From positions 1-64,000 of the forward strand of contig JAAILG010001217.1 of NCBI GenBank assembly GCA_012026655.1: DNA of 64,000 nucleotides. The letters are read 5' to 3'. Positions within the stretch are counted from its first letter, which is position 1. The number at the start of each line of letters is the position of its first letter. Below the pieces are notes generated by a model that worked only from the letters and a program-made list of their open reading frames with translations, made no database searches and was not told where the DNA came from. Positions 3,536 to 24,088 of the stretch are shown piece by piece. The position numbers were made by a program, and so were the translations under genes. Source of the stretch: Hydrolagus affinis (lineage: Eukaryota).

Positions 3536-5207
3536 GTGTAGTAGAGAGCGTGAGACACAAATAAAGAAGAGATTAAATAAGTGAGCGAGTGTGCTAGTGA
3601 GAGGTAATAAATTGTTTTACCCACAGATGCAGAATTACCTTTATCCAATCCCTTTTGCTGGGGAGTCTTTTAATGAGTCTTTTTATCCACCTGTCTGACA
3701 GTTTCTTTCTTGACTTTGATTACTTTATATCCTTCCACCTGTTATGGTAAAAGAAAAAAAAACATTCTCTGGGTTAATAAGAGAATAATCTGGTCACCGG
3801 AATACTCAAAAGCAGCAGACATCTGAGGGGCTTAATGTGAAAGTGTTAGTATGATTAGTGAGCATATCTTAAATAGATTTCATAATTTTTCTCCAACAAG
3901 AACAGCAAAGTTCACACATTCAGTAAGAGTAGATACTGCAACACAAGATTATTAGTCAACAAATGTCAGCACGGTAGATCACTCGCACAGCTAGAGCATG
4001 GATTAAAGAGATCAACTGGAATTCAAACAAAGTCTAGAAAGACTGAAAGAACCATCCCATTTTTACAAAATCTTAAATCGAAGAAACCACATTAATCAGA
4101 TCCAGTTTAATTCCAGTGAATGACAAACAATCCCTTTCTGTTGATTTCAAAAGAGATAAAAGTAGAGAGTGTTCAGAGAAATACTCTCATCTTGTAATAT
4201 TAGACATAATATTTAAAGTATCCATATGTATCCATATCCATTCTTTTGAAAGAATTCAACATTCAAATTCATTTAAGCGATTAAGCTCCTTTAAATGGGG
4301 AAATTAAACAAGTATTTACGTGCATGAAAGGTAAAATAAAGTGCTATGAGGATTTTACTTGAAAATAGCAGCTTTAATCTGGATTTGATTTATGCAACAG
4401 AACCTAAAGATTCAGCAAAAAATACAATGGAGCCAAAGATCTTGTTCCAGAATTCATTCGAGTCACACAATAGCTCAGCAAAAGATCGTACAAATAATTC
4501 TGATCTGCAGAATTAATCATTAGTTGCTAAATGCTTGCAGTATCTCTTTCAAAATAATACTAATTTCTCCTCCCAAGAAAAGATTCAGCTTTAGCAATAC
4601 TTTCAAAAATAAGGGCCATTCTGTTCATTTTATCAATGAGAATCATGGTGACCAAAAATTGCATTAGCAGGGATTATGGAACTTTTCCATTACAATCTGA
4701 GCATCAAGATAAAATGTGTTAAAATGTGTCCCGTGTGCAAAACAAACCACTACCTATTGTCAGGAAATAGTATCAAGTTTCCCATAGCTATCCTTACAAG
4801 TAAAAAGTTAAAACATCTCTTGAAAGATGCAATTCACACTTGCAAGCTAACATTATTATTATTATTTCTTAATCAGCATGAATTGACAACAGCTGAGATA
4901 CTAATCTTGGTTGCCATTATGTTGCTACTATTGTAACTGGCATCTAAATACAGTATATCAGCCATTCAATACAATTTTCATGCCTGCTTATTGAAAACTA
5001 CCTATCATCTGGGCACATATTTTCTGTGAAAATGTAGGATAATAATTAAGTGAGGAATTTGGGGGCAGAAATGAACTCTTTGTGGCAGGATTATCATTTT
5101 ATCGGTGCTATTGCCCACAATCTATATAATTTTAAATTCCCAAATTTATCTCAAGCATCTAATAATTAATTCTACTACAGTTTTCCATATTTCTTCAAGC
5201 ATCAAAC

Positions 5208-5318
5208 CTCCTGTTCTGTATCAGCACATTCAAAATATTCCTCATCAGCCTGCCCTTCCACTTCTGTAGGTTCGTTGTCTTTAGACGTAACAACACACCT
5301 CACTACTTTTCGGGTTAC
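5208..5318 (-). CDS. ANK3: obscurin-binding exon 3 (111 nt)
   Basis: TAG|GTA ACC...GAG|GTTTGA; VTRKVVRCVVTSKDNEPTEVEGQADEEYFECADTEQE. Read-through of the donor gives V then stop. Confidence 0.85.
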
Positions 5319-5472: not shown

Positions 5473-5556
5473 TTTTCTTGTGACGTGGTTGCCATCTTCA
5501 TCCACATACTGCTCTTCCATGACAGTTTCTCCAGGGATGTTTTTTGCTTCCTCTGC
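5473..5556 (-). CDS. ANK3: obscurin-binding exon 2 (84 nt)
   Basis: TAG|GCA...AAA|GTACAG; AEEAKNIPGETVMEEQYVDEDGNHVTRK. Confidence 0.93.
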
Positions 5557-7838
5557 CTAAAGGATGCATCATTGAAAAAATCAAGACATATTTAGAATAG
5601 GAAGACTGACACAACACCGAACCATACACTTAACAATCCTGGATGCTAAGAGAATGGTTATTATTGTAAATCTTGTCACGTAGAATATTTTCTTTTTGTT
5701 TGTTCAAGACCCAACAAAGCATGAATGCACCAGCATTCTATTAATCACTGTGTGATCCTGACTAGCTGCTTGCTGTCCGCAGCATTGATTATACAGTTAA
5801 TCATGGGGCACCCCAGAGCAACCAAACACTGTAGCAACCTGGTTACAGCAATATGACCTCAGAGCTACAGCCAAATTAAAAATGAGAATTTAATGCCCAG
5901 CTTCTTTGTTCTTAGGTTATTTTTTTCTTCTAAATTATCCATAATATTTCATTAACACAGTGCCACTTTACTGATTGACCAATGACTAAAAATATGAAGA
6001 AATCTTGCTTACTACGCACATTTTAAAAAAAATCAAAAAACACTTACTTTAATTCACCATCAATTTGAAGGAATTTCAGGAAAACTGCCTATACAAGAGT
6101 AGCTCGCACTAATGTATTTATGTATGCCTTTTATATGCTGCATTGCAAAGATGTACTGTGTGAGTTTTGCAAGCAGTCAGTCAGAACTGCACTTTTCTTA
6201 AACTCATGCGACTGCAACTCAGACTTCTCATACAAATCTGTTACCGTAGCATGCAGCAGCTGCATTAGTATGTGCTGCTAATTGCAATAAGATTTTCTTT
6301 AGGTAAATTGTAATCTGAACACTTTTGTAAATTGGCACTAAGTCTTCAAGAGTTGCAGTTTTGAATCAAAGCAATTTCATTAATTCGACTGGTTGTGAGT
6401 GAATATAATTTTCATTGGTTCTCTATAACACTTATTAATCACATATCTTTGTAATATGATACAGCTTTCATGAGTTGTTCAGAGGGCAATCCAAGAGAAG
6501 CATACACTGACAGCCAATTAATTGAGTTTCCATTCTGTGTTTAAAAAAAATTTGAAGCACTTCTTTAGCTTGTACTATAGTCAGGACAAAATGCATTAGT
6601 GGGGTCAAACCGTGGGGGTGACAAAACTTCACAATTTATACCATCCAAAACCAGAGCCAGGGTCATGCTTTCATGTAGCTGAACAGTTTGATGGTCTGTG
6701 ATCTTGTTGTATTGGTCATGTTTGAAGCAAAGGAGTTAAGTTACTTCCTTTTGTACTTCTAACCCTTTTCCCAAGAGGTTTCCCACCTCCACCCATTGGT
6801 TTCTTTATTGCTTCCTCTTTTTTTCTGTGTTTATATTTCTCTTTAAGACAGGAAATTCTCAGGTTGCATTCAATCCTATTGTTCTAATTGGGAAAATGAT
6901 CATAAGCATATCAGAAGATGGTAGAAGTGGCATTTTGGATAAATTTCATTTTCTTCAACTACATAGGTTCAGCCTCCAATCTGGATGTGTAAATTTTTAT
7001 ATGTCTTCAATTCGTAGAATTACAAATACAGATTATAATAATGTTCCACTAATCTACAGAACAGCAAAACAAGGCAATGTCTTGACAACATCAATATAAT
7101 CTGATATTTTGTAAATCATGCCACCTCTTTTGCCCAAGAACAGATTATTCAACTCATCAAGTTGATTCTTTCTATGTGTAATGTATTCCATCTCACTGTG
7201 AACTCTACCCAACAACCAACCCATCTCCACCAATGAACCCCACCTAGCTGCCAATCAATAAGAGACCCAACAGCACATAGGCATTGAAGTTTTAAATCAC
7301 CAATGAAAAGGATTACAAGTAAATTGTTTGCGCTTGAACTAATCTGGTCCATGAATTAAGAACCCAACCACATCTCAGACTCTAATGTGATAACATGTAG
7401 ATGTAAATAGAGGTTGATCAGTCCAGTGTCTCCTCTTTTCATATAAATGTTCTAATGCATACATTTGATCTATAACAATGTCATCACACTTGCTTATTTA
7501 GGAACTCCCTATGGTGTAATACTAAATTTAAAAATTGACTTTATTTGAATAAATTTGATTCATTTAAGAAAAACTATTCGAATGAAAAGTTTGAAAGGAT
7601 GACAATTGAATTCCAAAGATGTGATTTTTTGCAAATCAATGGGCCATTGTTCTATCAGTGCCGCGCTGAAGATAATTATGAAGCTGTTCCTTCTCATCAA
7701 ACTGATCAACCCCACGAAATCATGCTTGGAGTCAAAAGCCCAAACACAGCAAACTGAAGCACCAAGCAAGATAGAGCAAAAAAAAATCATTTCCAAACAG
7801 CAACTGACAAACAACAACACACTAAAATGACTGGATAC

Positions 7839-7919
7839 CTTTAGAATTACCCTGCGGCGAATAACCCTGGTGGTGACAATCTCCTCCTCATCCGAGCTGG
7901 GCTCACTTTCCCCAAGCTC
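7839..7919 (-). CDS. ANK3: muscle-type obscurin-binding exon 1 (81 nt)
   Basis: CAG|GAG...AAG|GTATCC; ELGESEPSSDEEEIVTTRVIRRRVILK. The acceptor is weak and the exon may extend to the ATG at 7979. Confidence 0.88.
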
Positions 7920-8912
7920 CTGATTAGTGTATTTTAGCACATTATGAAATAAGTTGAAATGTATTGTGAGAGCTGACATAGACAGATGCACTTCCTTCAA
8001 ACTAGTCAAGACTTAAATGGCATGCTATTAGATTATATTTGCATGTCATTTGACATAAGTTGTTGTATTGGTTCATTATCTTTGTAAATTTACTTCAGGA
8101 TTCAAAGCCCGGCCCTGTTCAATGTTCCCTTAAAGAATGGCAAATACACTAAAACATTACCATATTGCAGCTTTTCTTTCTCAATATATTTCTCAATCAC
8201 TCAATCAATCACAAATAATTCACAGTGCCTCAAAAATCTTCTTAAAAATATTTGTTCTACATCGATGTTATTCATAGTTGTGGTTTGCAGTAAAATACAA
8301 TAATGCTTCCATTTTTGAATCATCAGAACATTTGTAGCTATGAATAAATTGATCTGCTTTGGGAAAAATATCAATTGATATTGATAGAACTGCATTAAAA
8401 ACAATGTTTAGCTATTAAGGGACACCGAGTATCACATTTCTGATTTAACTAATACTGTACCATGAAAATATTACAGTCACTTCAGGCAACATACAGAATA
8501 ATATTTGCAGATGTAACATACAATGATATATTTACTCAAATAGAAGCCTGTGCAGGAATGGAAACGGCAGTGGTATGTTTTCCATGACTTAACTTTAGGC
8601 GAAAACAGATACCAGTTAAATTAAGTAATGGTTTGTTACATAACCTGAATGTCAGATATAATGAAAATCACTCTGTGTGACTAGGAATATTGATAAAATC
8701 AATGAACATATCATGAACTGGAGGATAAACCTGCTAAGATATTAACAGATGAATTGAGGCAGTACTTCTGGAAGTAAAGTGTGAACACTTGTAATAAACA
8801 AAAGACAGATGCATTTATTTTTCAAGCTAAAATAATACCCCAATACTTTAACATTATTTCAATTGAAAGATCCTACCAGCATATTTAAGAAAATATACAT
8901 ATATATATTTAC

Positions 8913-9303
8913 CTGTACTTGGCGTTCTTCCTCCCTCCTGCCGAGTCCTTTATCCTCTGAGGTAGTCCAGCTCTTTTTCTTTTCACTACCAAACAGAGTG
9001 GTTACTGATTCCTCTATAACCGGTTGTTTTGTGCCCCCCAACTCTTTCTGCAATTCGGTTCTGGATTCTGTTTGTTCTGTAATAAGCATGGAGCGTTTTT
9101 GTGCCTTCCCATTTAGCGTTTTCCTGTCATGAACCCCCACAGACAAGCCTTCTGCAGGCTCCTGAACTATTGCTTCATTTGACTGTCGTTCCACACTATG
9201 AATGTCCCCATTTTCCTCAGGCTTTGACATTTTTCCATCTGCTTGTCGTTTCTGATAAGATGCAGATTCAACGAACACATCCTTGGATTGTTGTTCTTGC
9301 CGA
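8913..9303 (-). CDS. ANK3: ANK3 C-terminal regulatory exon (391 nt, phase 2-0)
   Basis: TTTTTTGAAG|T CGG...GTA CAG|GTAAAT; open frame; phases match the flanking exons; sequence is diverged. Confidence 0.82.
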
Positions 9304-15263: not shown

Positions 15264-15862
15264 CTGCAGTTTGAAACACAGTGTTAAATGGACATTCCCA
15301 ACTGGCAAAAGTAACATCCAACATTTGTCGTAAAGTTACTAGTGCCCAGACTGCAAACAAAATGAATATGCCCTGATGACCTCAACATATACAAATCATT
15401 TCACAAGATCTGAAAAAAAAGTCTAGATTTAGCATTGCTGAATGTTACATTATTTGGTATCATAGTGCAATACTGATTATGGGTCTATACATGCTGAGAA
15501 CACCTAAGTGGTTTATTTTAATGTTGTGTAACTAGTGGTGAAGAACAAACTACTGTATGGCTTTTAATGTTTTGTGGGACCAGTATTGCATCCTCTAGTA
15601 TAACTTACACAGTACTGCAGAGAGAGCTAATGTTCTCTGCTACTGCTTGCTGGCATGCTTAACTAACTGAGTTGGAGAGAAAGGGATACAAGACAGCACA
15701 AACAATGACGATGACAACATGATAGCTAGGATAAACCACGCCACAGGCAATCACAAGAATTCATGCACTAAAGATCAACAAGTCGAAAATTTTACAAACT
15801 AGGCTTGATCTCCACGATGTGAGCCACGTGAGGCCCAGAAACCTGACTGCTCTCCTCCCCAC

Positions 15863-18800
15863 CAGTCCTTTTACTGTTCCTTGTCTCACTGTCGACCTTT
15901 TCAACCTTTGTTTTTAAAGGCGCTGCCTCTGGTCTCATATCTCTAGGAGACCTCGATGTAATGGAAGGTTGACAAGCTTGACCAGCCTCTGACAATGATG
16001 CATTTCTTGATGTGCTGTCTTCATCATCAGACATCTCTGACTGCACCTTTTTCTCTTCATCAGCAAGACGATCCACAATCTTTAATGTCTCACCACTAAT
16101 ACCTTTAAAATATTCAATTGTATGTTTACAGGCCTCACTCAACTGATCTTTTCCTGTTTTAGTGGCAGCAATGTTACGTCTTACCTTAACTGGAAGTCTG
16201 GAATAAAACTGCGTAGACTTTCCTACCTCCTTCTGCCCCGGGGTTAAAATAGACTGACATTTTGCAGTTAGAGCTGCATTAGATTTGTTTATGTTTTTAA
16301 CTGGAATTCTAGACTTTGCTTCTAAACATTTATGAGGCTCTGTTCTTTCCGTGAAGTCAATTTTCCTAGACTGTTTCACCTTGCTGTTTTCTGTTTTCTG
16401 ATCTTTATTCTGACAAATTGATGTTCGAGTGCTAGCTATTTTAACTGGAAGTCTTGATTTAGGTATTTTTACTTTTTCTGTATTGTTTTGTTTCTTTTGC
16501 TTATCTGCTTTTATTGTTTCAGTTACAGAACATGCCAATGTACCTGGATCCTCATCAGTTGTTTTAGCTGCTGGTTCAGCTTGTGTTACATCTCTGCCCT
16601 GACTGCAGTCAGTTTGTGTGATTGGGGGATCAAGTTTGTCATTAGAATTAACTACTGATAAATCTGGCCTTTCATATTGTACGTTACACTTCTGACTAAC
16701 AATTCCAGTTTTATCCGTAGTAATTTCTATGATTGTAGTTTCTGAAACCTGGTAACCTAGTATCACAGCATCCGATTTGATTTCCACCATCTCTGCGGCA
16801 CCCACATCTTTCTTCATAGTCATTGTAGAAGCTGAAATTCCCATTTTTATCGGTGTGCGCAATTTAGGATCACCTTTGGCAGCAATAACTACAGATGGCG
16901 ATTTGTCCATTGAGTTGCTGCTGGATACCATTTCCAGGCAGTCTCCAACAACCTGGACTTTCTCCTGCTCAACATCTAGTATCTCTACTGGTGACTCAGC
17001 TGTTTTGTCCCCTGTCTGAGACAGTGTTGTAGCTACAAGTGTATTTTGAACCCTNNNNNNNNNNNNNNNNNNNNNNNNNNNNNNNNNNNNNNNNNNNNNN
17101 NNNNNNNNNNNNNNNNNNNNNNNNNNNNNNNNNNNNNNNNNNNNNNNNNNNNNNNNNNNNNNNNNNNNNNNNNNNNNNNNNNNNNNATGAAATGGGAAGG
17201 GATTAGGCTCACTACTTGGAGTGCTCTCATCTGTTGGGGTTCTGGCTGGGGTTGTATCTGGTGTTGTTGCTTGGGACCTGTCCTCTACTGCTAAGCCAAA
17301 GGCTTTTTGCTCATCCTCTCTTAACCTAGCTTCAAAGACTTCATCGTCGCCTCGGCCATTAGACCATGGATCAAAGTCAAGGCCTTTGGTAGCAACAGTT
17401 TTAAACTGTGTTGCAAATTCTTCCTCTAGTTTGTAACTAAAATAAGAATCATTAAACCCAGTTCTGTCAGGATGCCTGCCTTCCAAAGTGTAGGAAATTA
17501 GTCCTGGTTTACCATCAGTTTGCCCTTCGCCTTTCTTTTCAGAAGTCTGAGCTTTTGAGTGCAAAGGCTGTTCTTCTTCAGCTCCTACCTTTCCTTCTTC
17601 CTCAATCACTGCAAGTTTACCCTGGCTATAGGAACGATCTCCCTGCTTCAATATCCCTTCTGTGACCCACACATCCTTCTTGGCTTCTACTGCCTGATTC
17701 AAGGATTTAGTGTCAGTTTCAGTTAAACCATCATCTTCATCTTGCAGGTCATATCCATCCAGAGAGTCAATTTCAGTGGCATCTGTGTCATGGGAGAATT
17801 CTGCTGTTGTTGCTATAGAGCATTCAGTGACTGACTGATCATTATTGCCATTGGCCATTTCATCATTGTCTAAATCAAAGCCATCTGTATTTTCAATAGG
17901 TAGAAATATATCTTGGGAACTGCCATTCTTTTCAGGCTGCCCTTTAGTTTTATTTTTCACAGAGTCAACCTTGTCATCCTCTTTGAGTTTAAAGGTATAC
18001 TTTTTCAATGGAATTGTCTGAAAGATGGATTCATCACTACTTGAATCACTTTCATCAAGTCCAGGTGGGACAGGAGACGGAGGCTGCACCCTTATAAGTG
18101 GTTCAGCCAAAAAGTGTTTGTCATGCTCTTCTTGCAAATTCAGCTCAATCATTTCTAGCTCATCATCGGAAGGATAGCGTTCTTTCTTAGTCATGTCAGA
18201 GGTTTCTTCATCTAAAGCATTAATTGGAGGGGGTGGAGGGAACTCAATGTACGCGACTCGGTTTTCCTTCATTCGTCTGTCGTTTCCATCCAATTTGGCT
18301 GTAAATCTGGTTGTTTCTTTGATAGAGATTGCTTTAGTCATCTCTGCCTCGTCTTCGGATTCTTCTGACGCTTCGGGGATTGGACTGGGTTTTCCTTGTA
18401 GAACTGGTAATTGTGAATCAGGTGTCTTCATTGTAAGGTCATAGCTGATTTCCTCAGAACTTGGTGTTTCAGGTGTAAGAGGACTTTTGCCAGAACTTTC
18501 TATGAATGATACTTGTTCCAAAGTGTCATCTTCTGGACTAGCCTGAGGAGAAGGGGATTGCTTATGTTGTTTAACTGAATAAAAAGTGCCCCTCGTTTCG
18601 TGTACTGTCCTGCTTTCCTGACTGAGTCTTTTAAAACCTCCTTGGTGAATACCTGAAGTTTCCTTTTCATACTGTTTGCCCATTTGAACAATACTGACAT
18701 ACACAGGTAAAGTCTTTATCTCTTTGAAACCTTCAATACTTGCTAAGGGTGCTACTTTTTCCAAATATTCAATTGGACTTGGGTCAAAGAACTCACTTGA

Positions 18801-21800
18801 AAATGATTCTTTAAGAGGACTAAACTCCAGAGAGTCAGGAGATTTGCTTGGGGAGGTTTCCGTGTCTTCCCGACAATGACCTGCATCTATATAATCTCCA
18901 CGCATAGCAGAGTTATGGTCTTCAGAGGCATTAGTTTGAAAGACAGTAGCAGGTGATAGTTTTGCGCTTTTGACTCCACTCACATTTAATTCTGCTACAT
19001 TTGGTATCAGTTCAGATCTTTTCACCTGAGCACCATTGCACCCTTGCATCTTTGAAGTCAATTTTACTTTTTCTTCGGGAATTCTAATTGGGATATGGGA
19101 TGGACTTGAACTCTCCTTTTTTTTCACGGTTCGTCCTCTCATTTGCTCTCTCATGCCATCACCATCTTCTTTCATGACAAGCTCTGTGTAAACCATTTTC
19201 CTTGATGAAGAAGTCGACTGAGCATCTTTAATGTTCTTTATTGAAGGTTTATTATTTGATGAATGCTCCTTTTCCGTTAAAGATGAAACAATCCTCTCTT
19301 GTGTTTGTCCATTAATTTTACACTCAACATGAACATTATCAATTTCCTTTATATTATCATGTACAAGTATGTGAGTAAGCTTGTCCACTTGTGATTTGTG
19401 ATTAGAGTTTCCACAGTTCTCCCAGGTCCTGTAGATCTTTTTCTCCTTATCTGACTTTGTGGACAAAACCGATTCTTCATTCAAACCCGGACCAGGAACA
19501 TTCACATTTGGTACAATTTCTGGATTTTGCCTGTGAAGCACAGACGAGACAAGATCAGTTGCAATGATGGAGCTTCCTTGACCACTTAAATCTTTCAACT
19601 TACTGGTATGCACTTCTTTTACAGATGAAATAGCTCCTTCAGCTGCCTGTTCCAGCTTCTTTTGATTAATGTCTTTTAAGGAAAATTGATAGATTGGTAG
19701 TTTGCTTTCTTGCGGTTGCTTTGGAAAGGAGTTTTGCTGCCCTTCTTGAAGGTTTCTGTCAATAAAGTTCGTTTTTAGTTCGTCAGTAGCCAGCCTACTG
19801 GAAAAACTATCAGTAAACATCTTGTATTTGCCATCAGTGCAATCATCCTGATAAACTTGATCGTGTAGATGTGTGAATCTGGATAATTCATTTTTCTGCA
19901 CGACTGCGGTTTCAGTTTTTAAGTGACGTAGACCAGTCTTTGCCTGTGTACAGTGGAATGCAGGCTGTACAAGATTTTCACCTTGTCTAATTTCACCTTT
20001 CATGTCTTCTGCAAAATTAGAATAACTTTTTCGTTCATAGCCAATTGCAGAATCAACAGCTTTCTTTTCTCCAGCATTTACATAGACCTTCCCCATGCAC
20101 TGTTCGTTTTGTTTTTCCTGGATACAATCATCATTCCGTGAAACTATGTCAACCAAAAGCAGTTTTTCAGGGCTGCTACTGGCTGAACTAAAGCCTGATT
20201 GCATTTGTTTTCCGTCCCTTTTGTGGGACTTCTTTTCGGGAGATTGCAGTTCATCATTTAGCTTTTCCGTTTTATCGCGAAAAAACTGAGATACCTCCGT
20301 TAGCTTTTCTTCCGCTTCCTTCACTGTCCGGTCTACTCTGTCTTCATACATTAGTTTTTCTCTTCCACCATCTATTCTGTCCTCACTAAACCTCATCCAC
20401 AGTGCATGTTTTGGACTGCCAGGCTCTGCTGGATAATGTAGTATTGTAACCTTTTCGAAAAGATCACCCCTGTCACCAGATTTACCTACAACATTTTCAG
20501 ATGCTTCTTTACGTGCCTTAGCAAGAAATTCTCTCTCTTGAACAGAGGCAATCTTTCCTTTGTAATGACCATCAAATGAATCTGTAAAGTAGGAATGAGG
20601 CTGCTCAGTAACTGATTCCTCAGTATCAGAAATATCCATTTTTTCAGAATGAAGCATTTTTTCTGCAAATTTGTAAGACTCTCCTCTCAACTCTGAGTAT
20701 TCATCATCATGGTATTCGATCGAATGTTGAGTCAGAAGCTTCAGTGTTTTGTAAGAATCATCAGATACAAGCTGGGCAGAACTAGGTCGACTGTCATCTT
20801 CCTGAGAAACTGGCGTGTTCACTCGTGATGATTCCATGTAGGATGGAAGTGATTCTTCAGCTGTGAGTTCCTCCTCCTCCTGTTGTGCCTGTTCATCTGA
20901 TAACACTTGGCAAATGTCAAACTTCTCTGGCAAAACTTTCGCATCTTTGAATGCAGTGTGTCCAGGAACATCTTTATGATAGACAAATAACTCTTTTTCG
21001 GGATGTTTTTTCGTCTCTCTTATGATGACCTCTGTTGGGTCTGCTTCATTTCCTTTCTCAATATGAACCTCTATAACTCTTTCCACTTTTGGCTGCAAGT
21101 TGTAATCTTTATCAAAGTGCTTTGCTGAGGCTTCACCAGCCTTATGATTCTCCAAAGAAACTCCTGACTTATGCTCAAAGAGGCCAGCCAGTTCTTTGGA
21201 AGGATCACGACCTGACTGGAAAGCTTTCATGATATCACGAACTGACATAGTTTCTTCTATACTCTCACTCCTTTCCTTGCGGGGAGGCGAGTGATAAACC
21301 ATTCTGGTTGTGGTTGTAATTTGAGTTTCTTCTTTCACACGCACTTCTTTGCTCATTAGACATTTATTGTCCTCTTCCTCGGATTTCATTCTAATTTGAA
21401 AAGCTTTCATCTTGTCCTTAACTGACCCAATTGGTTTTTCTTCCACTTTTGTGAACATCCCAGCAGTTTGTGATGGAACTAATAATTCTTCCTCTTTGGA
21501 TTCCTGAGTTTCTTCTATTGTAGGTTCATAACTTCGGATAACATGGACCACTTCAGTCCGTGTTTCCGTAATAACAGGGGGTATCGGTACATCATGAAAC
21601 AAAGGTTTAGGTCCAGTGCTCTCTGCACTCTGTGGGGCTGAAGGAGTCTTTTCACTTCTTGTTTCAAAACCACTGTCTGATAAAGGACTTTTATCTTGAT
21701 CATGTTGAGAAAAATCATCAGGTGATTCCAAGATGGCTTCTGTTGCTAACACAGCATCTGCAAGTTTACTTAATTCTTTCTCTGAAGCTGAAGTTCGTAT

Positions 21801-23641
21801 GGGTGACGGTGGCATTTTAAGTTTATGTTCTGGTAAAGGCATTGCTGGTTTAAGTATTCGTTTTGAAAATATTTTTTCTTCACCTTCCTTTTTGACATCA
21901 GTTTGTCTATATCTACCGTCGTTCATTCTTCCCAGTGCATCAGTTCCAAGATCATTTGTCAAATAGTCAACAACTCTTGCTAAACTGAAGTCTTTTTCAT
22001 CTCCATTCCTGGTTTTCATATGCACAAATTCAGGTGTAAAAGTGCAAAATTCCTCACTGGCTTTTTGCTTTGCTTCTTCAATTTCATCACAATCAAATGT
22101 CACCCACTCATCTTTACCCAAATGATTTCCATTTGTCGGACCTCCTTTACAGCCATCCTTATTTTCCGAAAACACATCCTTCTGTAAAATCTCACTGACT
22201 TTTACCAAATCCTCTTTAACTTTCTCCACGAGTTTAAAAGTCTCTTCACTATCATCTTCACTTTTTCCTCCTTTTGCCGAGATTTCAGATGGGAATGTCT
22301 TGTCACTTGTCGAGTCTGTCTGGAGGATGGCCGTCACCTTCATCAGGTCTTCTTTCATTTCGGCAACGTCTTTCAAAATTTCCTGGCTCGAGGACAAAGA
22401 AGATGCGCAAGATAGTTTCAGTGCCGACGGAGCAAGGAACATAGAGGTTTTCAATGTAGACAATGTTTGAAGAATTTGAGACTGAGGTTGTGTGCGAGAT
22501 TCTGTAGATATGGATTTGATGGGCGATAGTAATGCAGTGGTTGATTTGGTTAATGCCACGCTCTCTGGGAGTTTTTTCAACTGTGGATCTGGCAAAATAT
22601 TTACTACAGAATACACCGGTACAGTTATAGTTGCTGAAGTCACAGATACTGTTGTTATAGATGAAGATCTCAATGATGAATACAATGACCCTGTGGGAGG
22701 TAATCTAACTGACTGAAAAGCAGAAGATGATGAAGATGCAAAAGACTTCAGTGGGGAAACACTGGTGGTGAAGGTTTTCTCTACTGCATAGTTTGCCTTT
22801 GAGAGAGATTTGTTGATTAACAACGTTGATTCCTTCTCTAGAGATGATCCAGATGTTTTACTGGATAAAAAAGCAGCTGCTGATGGATATTTGATGGGGG
22901 ATATTGTTCCGTTCGTTGTTATTTGACCCGTAGATGAAATCACTGAATTAAATGGAGAGAACGATGTAGATGTTAGTCCTCGAGCTGAATCAATCATTGA
23001 TTTAACAGGGGATGATCCGGACATTGACATTGATTTCAAAGGAGAAGGCAGAACTGTGGTTGTAGTTGTAATGATTGACTTGAATGGTAAAGTTGATGAG
23101 TACATGTTAACTGTTGATTTGGGCGAGGCTGGTGGTGTCATTGTAATAGAGGATCTCTCCAGAAGTGAGCTTGCGGTTGTCACAGGTGATATGCGTGAAG
23201 AGAACACTGAAGAAGCTAGTCCTTTTACAGAGGAAGATTCAGGCATTATTGACGCTTTCACTGGTGAAGAAATCAAAGCAGAGGAAGGTTTAACAGCATA
23301 CGGAGTCTGTGTCACTACAGTTTTTATAGGTGAAGATGTGGATTTAAATGATCTAATTGGAGATGCTAAATCACTCATAGATCTTACTGAAGAAGTTGTG
23401 GAAGCTCCTAAGGTTGATTTGATAGGTGAAGCAGAAGAGGCAGACCAAATTGACTTTAATGGGGAAGCTGTTGGCGTGTTGGACGTTGAACTTGACAAAG
23501 ATGTAAATCCAGATTTTGCTTGTCCAGTGACTGCTATGGGAGCTGTTGCCCATGACTGGTAAGGTCTTGTTGAAAAGACCGACTTGTATGAGTAAGGTGT
23601 AGGTAGAGATCTTGGGGTTCCTGTACTCCATTCAATGGTTT
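15863..23641 (-). CDS. ANK3: ANK3 giant (neuronal, AnkG-480) exon, ~7.8 kb
   Basis: 2629-aa ORF; acceptor TTTTTAAAG|AA ACC; donor ACT G|GTGGGG (15863) or CCT A|GTTTGT (15800). Contains the Ser-rich domain, EILKDVAEMKEDL, DKSPLSDSGFETRSEKTPSAPQS and QATTPDTTPARTPTDESTP hallmarks. Confidence 0.97.
17055..17186. other. assembly gap (132 N) inside the giant exon
   Basis: Run of N; reading frame is the same on both sides. Confidence 0.99.
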
Positions 23642-24088
23642 CTTTAAAAATTGTTAAAATAAAATACAAATGCAAAATCAACGGGAAAATTAAAGAAAGA
23701 AAGACCAGAGAAAAAAGGTGATCAGTGAACAGGGTACACTGTTAGAAAAAAGTACAGTTAATATTTACAATACATTCAGTGAGATGCCATAAGAAAACAA
23801 TTTCATTTAGAAAGCCCAGTTGAATCCATTTATTTTTAAGCGTACAGATTATCAAATCCGGAAAACAAGCAAAGCAGCAAATAAAGCACAAAACAGACTA
23901 TCACGCTGCTCCTTGAAAAGGAGGGATAAAAATAGGTCTGAAGATGGGGGTGAAAAACAAACAAAATACAAACATGAAACAAATGGACACAACAGTAGTG
24001 GACATTGTAACAACATTTTCTACTTGTGTTTTCATGTGCTGTCATTGCTCACTACCTTTTGAGTAGCTGATGCATTTAAACTAGCTAC

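What the first reader, a model, noticed from the sequence alone, without database searches (positions are those of the whole stretch)
7839..7979. sAnk1-like in-frame extension: a possible small muscle ankyrin encoded inside ANK3
Seen: the 'intron' before the muscle exon is open in frame from an ATG at 7979, giving MSALTIHFNLFHNVLKYTNQ-ELGESEPSSDEEEIVTTRVIRRRVILK. The nominal acceptor (GCTAAAATACACTAATCAG) has no pyrimidine tract. Established: ANK1 makes small sarcoplasmic-reticulum ankyrin (sAnk1/Ank1.5) from an internal first exon, recalled as ...LCFVLKHIHQELDKELGESEGLSDDEETISTRVVRRRVFLK. The match VLKYTNQEL / VLKHIHQEL crosses the splice site, and the next two exons match the rest of sAnk1. 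No transmembrane segment is present (in-frame stop at 8013-8015). Inference: either a live, soluble or amphipathic 'sAnk3' of ~110-145 aa from an internal muscle promoter, or a fossil showing that the small-ankyrin first exon predates the ANK1/2/3 duplications.
Basis: partly seen in the sequence, partly recalled or inferred. Interest (0 to 1): 0.72.

Follow-up and report, generated by a model that had tools for sequence, protein, structure and literature searches.

The report
Small-ankyrin relic inside ankyrin-G gene
In a cartilaginous fish's ankyrin-G gene, the intron bases just before a known muscle-type exon resemble part of the small muscle ankyrin made by a sister gene; they are likely a leftover of a shared ancestor rather than a new protein, though RNA reads leave a short transcript possible.

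Summary
The window is ANK3 of a chimaera-like fish. Exon 7919-7839 matches mouse Ank3 exon 47 (obscurin/titin-binding module I). Its pyrimidine-poor acceptor is used: 13-15 spliced reads in one run, a contig in another, and a RefSeq isoform.

The sAnk1 likeness upstream is beyond chance (0 of 945 control sites). It is mostly confined to the last 7 codons, lacks the membrane anchor and most invariant sAnk1 residues, and is shared by ANK2. The ATG has a weak context and five out-of-frame ATGs just upstream. All 4 listed substitutions in relatives change the residue. No small ANK3 protein appeared, in limited searches.

Against this reading: one RNA run shows 15-17x unspliced coverage just 5' of the acceptor, fading to 2-4x by 8120, as a nearby start would give. 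An in-frame ATG also sits 19-21 codons up in a relative and in ANK2.

Best reading: a cassette exon preceded by a relic of an ancestral small-ankyrin first exon (0.5). A live, membrane-free 134-aa 'sAnk3' remains possible (0.22).

The parts
7839..7919 (-). 81-nt phase-0 cassette exon of ANK3, obscurin/titin-binding module I (counterpart of mouse Ank3 exon 47)
   Evidence: Spliced in and skipped in RNA; internal exon of C. milii ankyrin-3 isoform X8, 93% identical over 29 aa; exon table of PMC4449188
7920..7979 (-). 60 intronic bases open in frame with the exon, from an ATG in weak context (T at -3 and +4)
7920..7940 (-). Core of the sAnk1 likeness (last 7 codons), overlapping the pyrimidine-poor acceptor, a branch-point-like word and a QKI-like word at 7928
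7941..7964 (-). Weaker extension of the DNA likeness to ANK1 (-22..-45)
   Evidence: 11 of 24 bases against own ANK1 (38 of 2,736 controls); 9 of 24 against teleost ank1a (211 of 2,736)
8013..8015 (-). In-frame stop; no membrane anchor can be read in this frame
   Evidence: best 19-residue hydropathy 0.27 against 2.1 in own sAnk1
8027..8070 (-). Degenerate second copy of 7966-7923
   Evidence: local score 37; 0 of 226 tiles on each strand, 0 of 2,000 shuffles, 3 of 361 own-upstream controls
7970..8156 (-). About 187 nt absent from organism A's contig, including ATG 7979; an in-frame ATG stands in the bridging letters instead
   Evidence: tables 5, 5c and 8; frame read by eye
7920..8120 (-). 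Raised unspliced RNA coverage in run X4 (candidate 5' extension from an intronic start)
   Evidence: 15-17.5x at 7920-8019, 13x to 5x over 8020-8119, 2-4x at 8120-8359
5473..5556 (-). 84-nt exon, module II (mouse exon 48 is also 84 nt)
5208..5318 (-). 111-nt exon following module II
3670..3738 (-). Last coding exon; a start at 7979 would give 134 aa over the four exons
8913..9299 (-). Upstream exon whose donor (8912) splices to 7919 or skips to 5556; its 5' end is approximate

Best explanation
Bases 7919-7839 are an alternatively spliced internal exon of ANK3, and the 21-45 intron bases before it are likely a non-coding relic of an ancestral small-ankyrin first exon that ANK1 kept. Shown: the exon is joined to the exons on both sides or skipped, and the upstream bases resemble the matching coding bases of ANK1 in both ANK3 and ANK2. 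From papers on mammals: this exon and the next give muscle ankyrin-G its obscurin, plectin and filamin C binding module. Inferred: before the ANK1/(ANK2, ANK3) duplications the exon served as both first and internal exon; ANK3 and ANK2 lost the promoter and membrane anchor; the last 7 codons survive best because they overlap the branch point and acceptor, and slow evolution in this lineage leaves a fainter trace to about -45. The ATG at 7979 would then be incidental, and any short transcripts would be poorly translated.
For: Acceptor use: 13 reads from 7 starts at joint 7918-8912 in X4 and a contig at depth 76 in X1; 15 loose ends in X4; C. milii isoform X8. Against 53 distinct sAnk1 segments the likeness sits in codons -7..-2 (ANK3 14.1, ANK2 11.6, each 0 of 945) and is absent in -20..-8 (ANK3 -5.8, 110 of 945; true sAnk1 at least 32); ANK3 lacks the (near-)invariant C, Q, N, F/Y and H of that segment. 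All 4 listed substitutions in the 60 nt change the residue: P 0.38 if neutral, 0.005-0.03 at omega 0.1-0.2. Weak ATG context, five out-of-frame ATGs at 8076-8023, and 32% GC with 2 CpG upstream against 57% and 14 for ANK1. A search of proteins under 1,076 aa with the C. milii ANK3 module gave 2 hits of 64 candidates, both sAnk1-type. ANK1 and ANK3 share a purine-rich word where an acceptor normally has pyrimidines, while ANK2 and ANK3 share the giant exon; this points to a coding ancestor (inference).
Against: In X4, 13-16 of about 31 reads at the exon's 5' edge are unspliced against 6-9 at its 3' edge (Fisher p 0.09), and coverage falls to 2-4x only above 8120 (starts 12 vs 2, p 0.013; 12 vs 4, p 0.077) with no GC step to explain it. 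An in-frame ATG 19-21 codons up stands in the window, in organism A's contig and in ANK2; each has about 11% chance. The codon test is tiny: 3 of 8 differences in organism A's piece were not listed, and the neighbouring coding exons gave 5 changing and 5 silent among listed rows. A control acceptor (module II) also reached 10 of 18 between ANK3 and ANK1, so the proximal likeness alone is weak proof of a coding past. No jawless outgroup was available.
Confidence: 0.5

Rival explanations
1. A live hybrid exon: an intronic start near 8040-8120 gives a transcript translated from ATG 7979 into a 134-aa ankyrin-G without a membrane anchor. It would bind obscurin, plectin or filamin C through modules I and II and would compete with or bridge anchored sAnk1 and long AnkG. 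ANK2 may make a parallel form.
For: The coverage ramp is strongest in the one raw-read run where the exon is spliced in (X4), weaker in X6 and absent in X5. 22 reads splice out at 7838 against 15 splicing in (p 0.32). No gap in 7788-7969 in organism A; ATG 7979 shows no listed difference in organism C. In-frame ATG in ANK2 with A at -3. Helical hydrophobic moment 1.9 against 2.16 in sAnk1. sAnk1.5 without its anchor still reaches the M-line (PMC2172649). Hybrid first/internal exons are common (PMC11797052 abstract).
Against: 4 of 4 residue-changing substitutions, weak start context and five upstream ATGs. No profile likeness in the first 13 codons. No contig over 7920-7969 in X1 although the exon is included at depth 76 (contigs drop rare forms). 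None of the best 120 of 472 small hits is named ankyrin-3, but 352 were not shown. X4-X6 are one sample of unknown tissue from a related organism, 27-30% read.
Confidence: 0.22
2. Reverse direction: the ancestor had only an internal exon. ANK1 later gained a promoter and recruited the upstream intron as coding sequence, so the ANK3 and ANK2 bases are homologous but never coded.
For: The likeness peaks where splice signals lie, with a branch-like word at the same place (-15) in all three genes. Internal exons that gain promoter elements are a described path (PMC11797052 abstract). No trace of the membrane segment was found upstream in ANK3 or ANK2 at protein level.
Against: The word shared by ANK1 and ANK3 is purine-rich, unlike the other acceptors. 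The hexamer that encodes sAnk1's invariant CQ lies within 66 nt of the acceptor in all three genes (63 of 2,743 control sites; noticed after the fact).
Confidence: 0.15
3. Chance or convergence: shared branch-point and QKI-like words in low-complexity A/C/T sequence mimic the peptide.
For: The module II control acceptors gave 10 of 18. The region also matches its own upstream neighbour, and that copy aligns to ANK1 in a conflicting register.
Against: 0 of 945, and 0 of 181 pyrimidine-rich control sites, reach the ANK3 values. The likeness repeats against a teleost exon (25 of 57; 5 of 2,736) and in ANK2 (23 of 57; 14 of 2,736). The control acceptor falls to 12 of 42 where this one has 23 of 42.
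Confidence: 0.1

Closest known systems
Muscle exons 47-49 of mouse Ank3 (76-aa obscurin/titin-binding insert of AnkG107 and related isoforms)
   Same: Same position and order; 81/84 nt here against 87/84 nt; short intron after the second exon (154 against 135 nt); alternatively spliced.
   Different: The acceptor lacks a pyrimidine tract and is preceded by an open frame with sAnk1 likeness; the mouse intron could not be read here.
sAnk1 (Ank1.5) first exon under the internal muscle promoter of ANK1
   Same: Module I and II peptides, the same donor position and the last 7 codons before the shared acceptor.
   Different: No membrane segment, no SCQN motif in frame, a 4-codon gap at the exon start, AT-rich upstream DNA and a weak start codon.
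ANK2 module I exon (own genome, L003)
   Same: Homologous exon; upstream frame open with an ATG 21 codons up; last 7 codons score against sAnk1.
   Different: Ordinary pyrimidine-rich acceptor (0.76); no likeness at -22..-45.
Hybrid first/internal exons (PMC11797052, abstract; PMC8769537, listing)
   Same: An internal exon with possible initiation near its acceptor.
   Different: No cap evidence here; main-text counts for ANK1/2/3 in both papers were zero.

Membership tests
sAnk1-type small ankyrins | N-terminal hydrophobic membrane anchor | tested here: not met
   Stop at 8015-8013; hydropathy 0.27 against 2.1; the anchor is needed for membrane targeting (PMC2134284)
sAnk1-type small ankyrins | Conserved segment between anchor and acceptor (SCQN to the H before the acceptor) | tested here: not met
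   Only codons -7..-2 score; -20..-8 at background
sAnk1-type small ankyrins | Obscurin-binding modules I and II | tested here: met
   By sequence only; binding not tested
sAnk1-type small ankyrins | Transcript begins at an internal promoter | tested here: inconclusive
   Coverage ramp in X4, weaker in X6, none in X5; no pile-up of read ends
sAnk1-type small ankyrins | Muscle-restricted expression and sarcoplasmic-reticulum location | not testable with these tools
   Tissues of the runs are not given
Muscle obscurin/titin-binding exon of ANK3 (mouse exon 47) | Lies in ANK3 | tested here: met
   Death-domain exon best matches Ankyrin-3 in PDB, 74 bits against 54 and 47; C. milii ankyrin-3 aligns along ten stretches
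Muscle obscurin/titin-binding exon of ANK3 (mouse exon 47) | Frame-keeping cassette followed by an 84-nt exon; included or skipped | tested here: met
   X4: 13 and 20 reads on the inclusion joints, 21 on the skip; X1: depth 76 against 32
Muscle obscurin/titin-binding exon of ANK3 (mouse exon 47) | Muscle-specific inclusion | not testable with these tools
   Inclusion differs between runs but tissues are unknown
Hybrid first/internal exon | Used as an internal exon | tested here: met
Hybrid first/internal exon | Also used as a first exon (excess of downstream junctions, capped starts) | tested here: inconclusive
   22 against 15 junction reads, p 0.32; no CAGE

The most novel reading that the evidence does not exclude
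All three vertebrate ankyrin genes inherited a small-ankyrin start. In cartilaginous fishes ANK3, and perhaps ANK2, still make anchor-free small ankyrins (134 aa for ANK3) from an intronic start just before module I, as soluble competitors or adaptors for obscurin beside membrane-bound sAnk1.
Probability: 0.2. Interest if true: 0.65.

Novelty: new variant of a known kind. Interest (0 to 1): 0.36.

Why it matters
If a relic, it dates the sAnk1-type first exon, the link between sarcoplasmic reticulum and sarcomere, to before the duplications that made ANK1/2/3, and shows coding sequence lingering as a weak regulated acceptor. That is a modest gain for muscle and ankyrin evolution. If live, it adds a class of anchor-free small ankyrins and gives a reason to look for matching short ANK2/ANK3 transcripts in other vertebrates. 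The exon itself and its homology among the three genes are already in print.

Tried and rejected
No RNA holder was listed as such by the run search; this is no evidence either way. Word-index search of 82-263 aa proteins with the 47 aa gave 1 hit of 1 candidate, a turtle sAnk1. The full-library search gave 4 hits: C. milii ANK3, an unnamed ANK2-like frame (P0005) and two unrelated proteins. Metagenome scans: 330 pattern matches with none confirmed; one match, a teleost ank1a-type first exon. No shark, ray, lamprey or tetrapod ANK3 intron could be obtained. The Atlas did not hold the window peptide or P0005; with C. milii sAnk1 it showed three ankyrin-1 clusters of 30 hits. A second ANK1-like stretch at 8055-8006 scored 28 in DNA (0 of 226 tiles on the - strand, 2 of 226 on the +) but was at background as protein (50 of 226), and its register conflicts with the self-copy alignment; not used as evidence. 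The codon-position pattern against ANK1 (10/10/6 of 19) was rejected as a test, because ANK1's own coding constraint gives it. Shared promoter words with ANK1 were not significant (18 of 300 shuffles); no strict MEF2, E-box or CArG word lies in 7980-8900. The promoter scan is bacterial and was disregarded. The coverage step at 4127 was first taken as a control for 'raised depth before acceptors' and dropped, because a good acceptor lies at 4138. Earlier findings of the scan: none. Hopitzan 2006 and Cunha and Mohler 2008 were not held.

Full report
Locus. The - strand of the window carries ankyrin repeats, ZU5/UPA exons, a 2,649-codon giant frame with a serine-rich head (23741-15795), death-domain exons and the C-terminal exons. 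The death-domain exon matches Ankyrin-3 best among solved structures (74 bits, against 54 for Ankyrin-1 and 47 for Ankyrin-2). Callorhinchus milii ankyrin-3 isoform X8 aligns along ten stretches at 72-98%. The animal is likely a chimaera relative (inferred from this closeness and from its sAnk1 exon). The own genome holds 3 matches to the 47 aa: the window; L002, a complete sAnk1 first exon with start codon and membrane segment; and L003, whose contig has a giant exon and an Ankyrin-2-type death domain.

Observation. The frame, ATG, upstream stop and pyrimidine-poor acceptor are as described. A start at 7979 would give 134 aa over four exons. An in-frame ATG before a stop is common, though: 282 of 938 intronic CAG sites have one, 99 of 938 at 20 or more codons.

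The acceptor is real. In raw-read run X4, 13 reads from 7 starts join 8912 to 7919, 20 reads from 16 starts join 7838 to 5556, and 21 from 17 skip the exon. In X1 a contig at depth 76 includes it and the skip stands at 32. X2 shows the skip (397) and an unspliced contig (17). The C. milii record carries it as an internal exon. It corresponds to mouse Ank3 exon 47 of the 76-aa insert (PMC4449188, passages). That this module is shared by the three ankyrins and binds obscurin, plectin and filamin C is in print (PMC2172649, PMC3575540, PMC12812942, passages). A review passage citing Hopitzan 2006 calls one module vertebrate-specific and muscle-exclusive (PMC2942773); I could not read the original.

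How far the sAnk1 likeness goes. Anchored on the AG, ANK3 matches own ANK1 at 12 of 18, 23 of 42 and 26 of 57 bases, each reached by 0 of 945 controls; 0 of 181 pyrimidine-rich sites reach the 18- and 42-base values. It repeats against a teleost ank1a-type exon (25 of 57; 5 of 2,736), as does ANK2 (23 of 57; 14 of 2,736). The signal is proximal: -21..-4 is strong in both genes, -45..-22 marginal in ANK3 only (38 and 211 of 2,736), and beyond that nothing. I built a profile from 107 of 121 sAnk1-type proteins (14, mostly teleost, missed my anchor pattern and were dropped; 53 distinct segments). Codons -7..-2 score above all 945 controls for ANK3 and ANK2; codons -20..-8 do not. An unnamed ANK2-like frame from another animal (P0005) shows nearly the same last codons as ANK2 here. 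A caution: the module II acceptors of ANK3 and ANK1 also share 10 of the last 18 bases, but only 12 of 42.

Is the extension coding now? Against: the four substitutions listed in the 60 nt in organisms A and C all change the residue, though two move towards the ANK1 residue. The sample is tiny, 3 of 8 differences in A's piece were unlisted, and neighbouring exons gave 5 changing and 5 silent among listed rows. The ATG has T at -3 and +4, and five out-of-frame ATGs lie at 8076-8023. Upstream DNA is 32% GC with 2 CpG, against 57% and 14 for ANK1. Protein searches showed only sAnk1-type small forms: 2 of 64 candidates and the best 120 of 472 hits, none named ankyrin-3; one named 'ankyrin-2-like' is sAnk1 by sequence, and 352 hits were not shown.

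For coding or at least transcription: X4 has 15-17.5x over 7920-8019, ramping down to 2-4x above 8120, with no splice joint or loose end listed there. X6 has a milder rise (8-9x) without spliced ANK3 reads, and X5 is flat at 1-3x. GC content is even. The downstream intron runs at about 6-17x against 2-4x for the far upstream intron, which an added start would also give. The counts are small (p 0.013-0.32), the three runs are one sample of unknown tissue from a related organism, and 27-30% of each was read. Organism A's contig lacks about 187 nt including ATG 7979, yet its bridging letters supply an in-frame ATG 19 codons up (read by eye); a shared 4-nt word at both ends of the gap could keep an ATG without selection. 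ANK2 has an in-frame ATG 21 codons up.

Mechanism. Shown: regulated inclusion of module I through a weak acceptor, with RBFOX-, MBNL- and QKI-like words nearby (motifs recalled, function untested). Inferred: the exon was first and internal at once in the single ancestral gene; ANK1 kept the promoter and anchor (PMC2134284, PMC4848520, passages); ANK2 and ANK3 kept internal use, and the codons overlapping the splice signals eroded least. The direction rests on ANK1 and ANK3 sharing a purine-rich word at an acceptor while ANK2 and ANK3 appear to be sisters (shared giant exon; sister relation recalled). No jawless outgroup was seen. A low-level start near the acceptor may exist under either reading, since such hybrid use is common (PMC11797052, abstract). 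If translated, the product would be soluble and likely reach the M-line, as anchor-free sAnk1.5 does.

Novelty. The exon is known. Nine literature searches listed no report of a small ANK3/ANK2 isoform or of sAnk1 likeness upstream of these acceptors; the names sAnk2/sAnk3/sAnkG gave 7 unrelated papers. Subscription papers, above all Hopitzan 2005 and 2006, were not readable and may already note it. The one supplement file held for PMC8769537 had no ANK entry, and its exon tables were not seen. Verdict: a real but small evolutionary trace, with about a one-in-five chance of a live anchor-free small ankyrin-G.

Noticed in passing
L003:1432-1494 (G000:C4271, ANK2): In-frame ATG with A at -3, 21 codons before the module I acceptor; the frame begins MW, holds CQ and ends like sAnk1, in sAnk1's order. 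An unnamed ANK2-like frame (P0005) shares the last codons. A candidate small ANK2 form or relic.
   Followed up: partly
window 8070-8027 (-): Degenerate copy of the acceptor-proximal 44 nt, ending in a TAG at 8027-8025; it lies in the stretch missing from organism A's contig.
   Followed up: partly
window 7838-7563 (-): The frame runs on through the donor for 92 codons into a UG-rich intron and holds a 19-residue hydrophobic stretch (2.58); an AATAAA lies at 7545. Run X6 shows unspliced coverage here. Possibly chance from T-rich sequence, or a tail-anchored form by intron retention.
   Followed up: partly
window 4137-3739 (-): Strong pyrimidine-rich acceptor at 4139-4138; X4 depth steps from about 2x to 14x there. 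Likely an alternative last exon adding 13 residues.
   Followed up: partly
L002:600-818 (G000:C118021): Complete sAnk1 first exon in this genome; the segment after the anchor shows an apparent 11-codon internal repeat.
   Followed up: partly
L007 (metagenome contig): A teleost ank1a-type first exon in a metagenome collection, likely host DNA; it lacks the CAG/GAG acceptor at the shared position yet keeps the peptide.
   Followed up: partly
window 15795-23741 (-): Giant ANK3 exon frame of 2,649 codons, interrupted by a run of N at 17055-17186.
   Followed up: no
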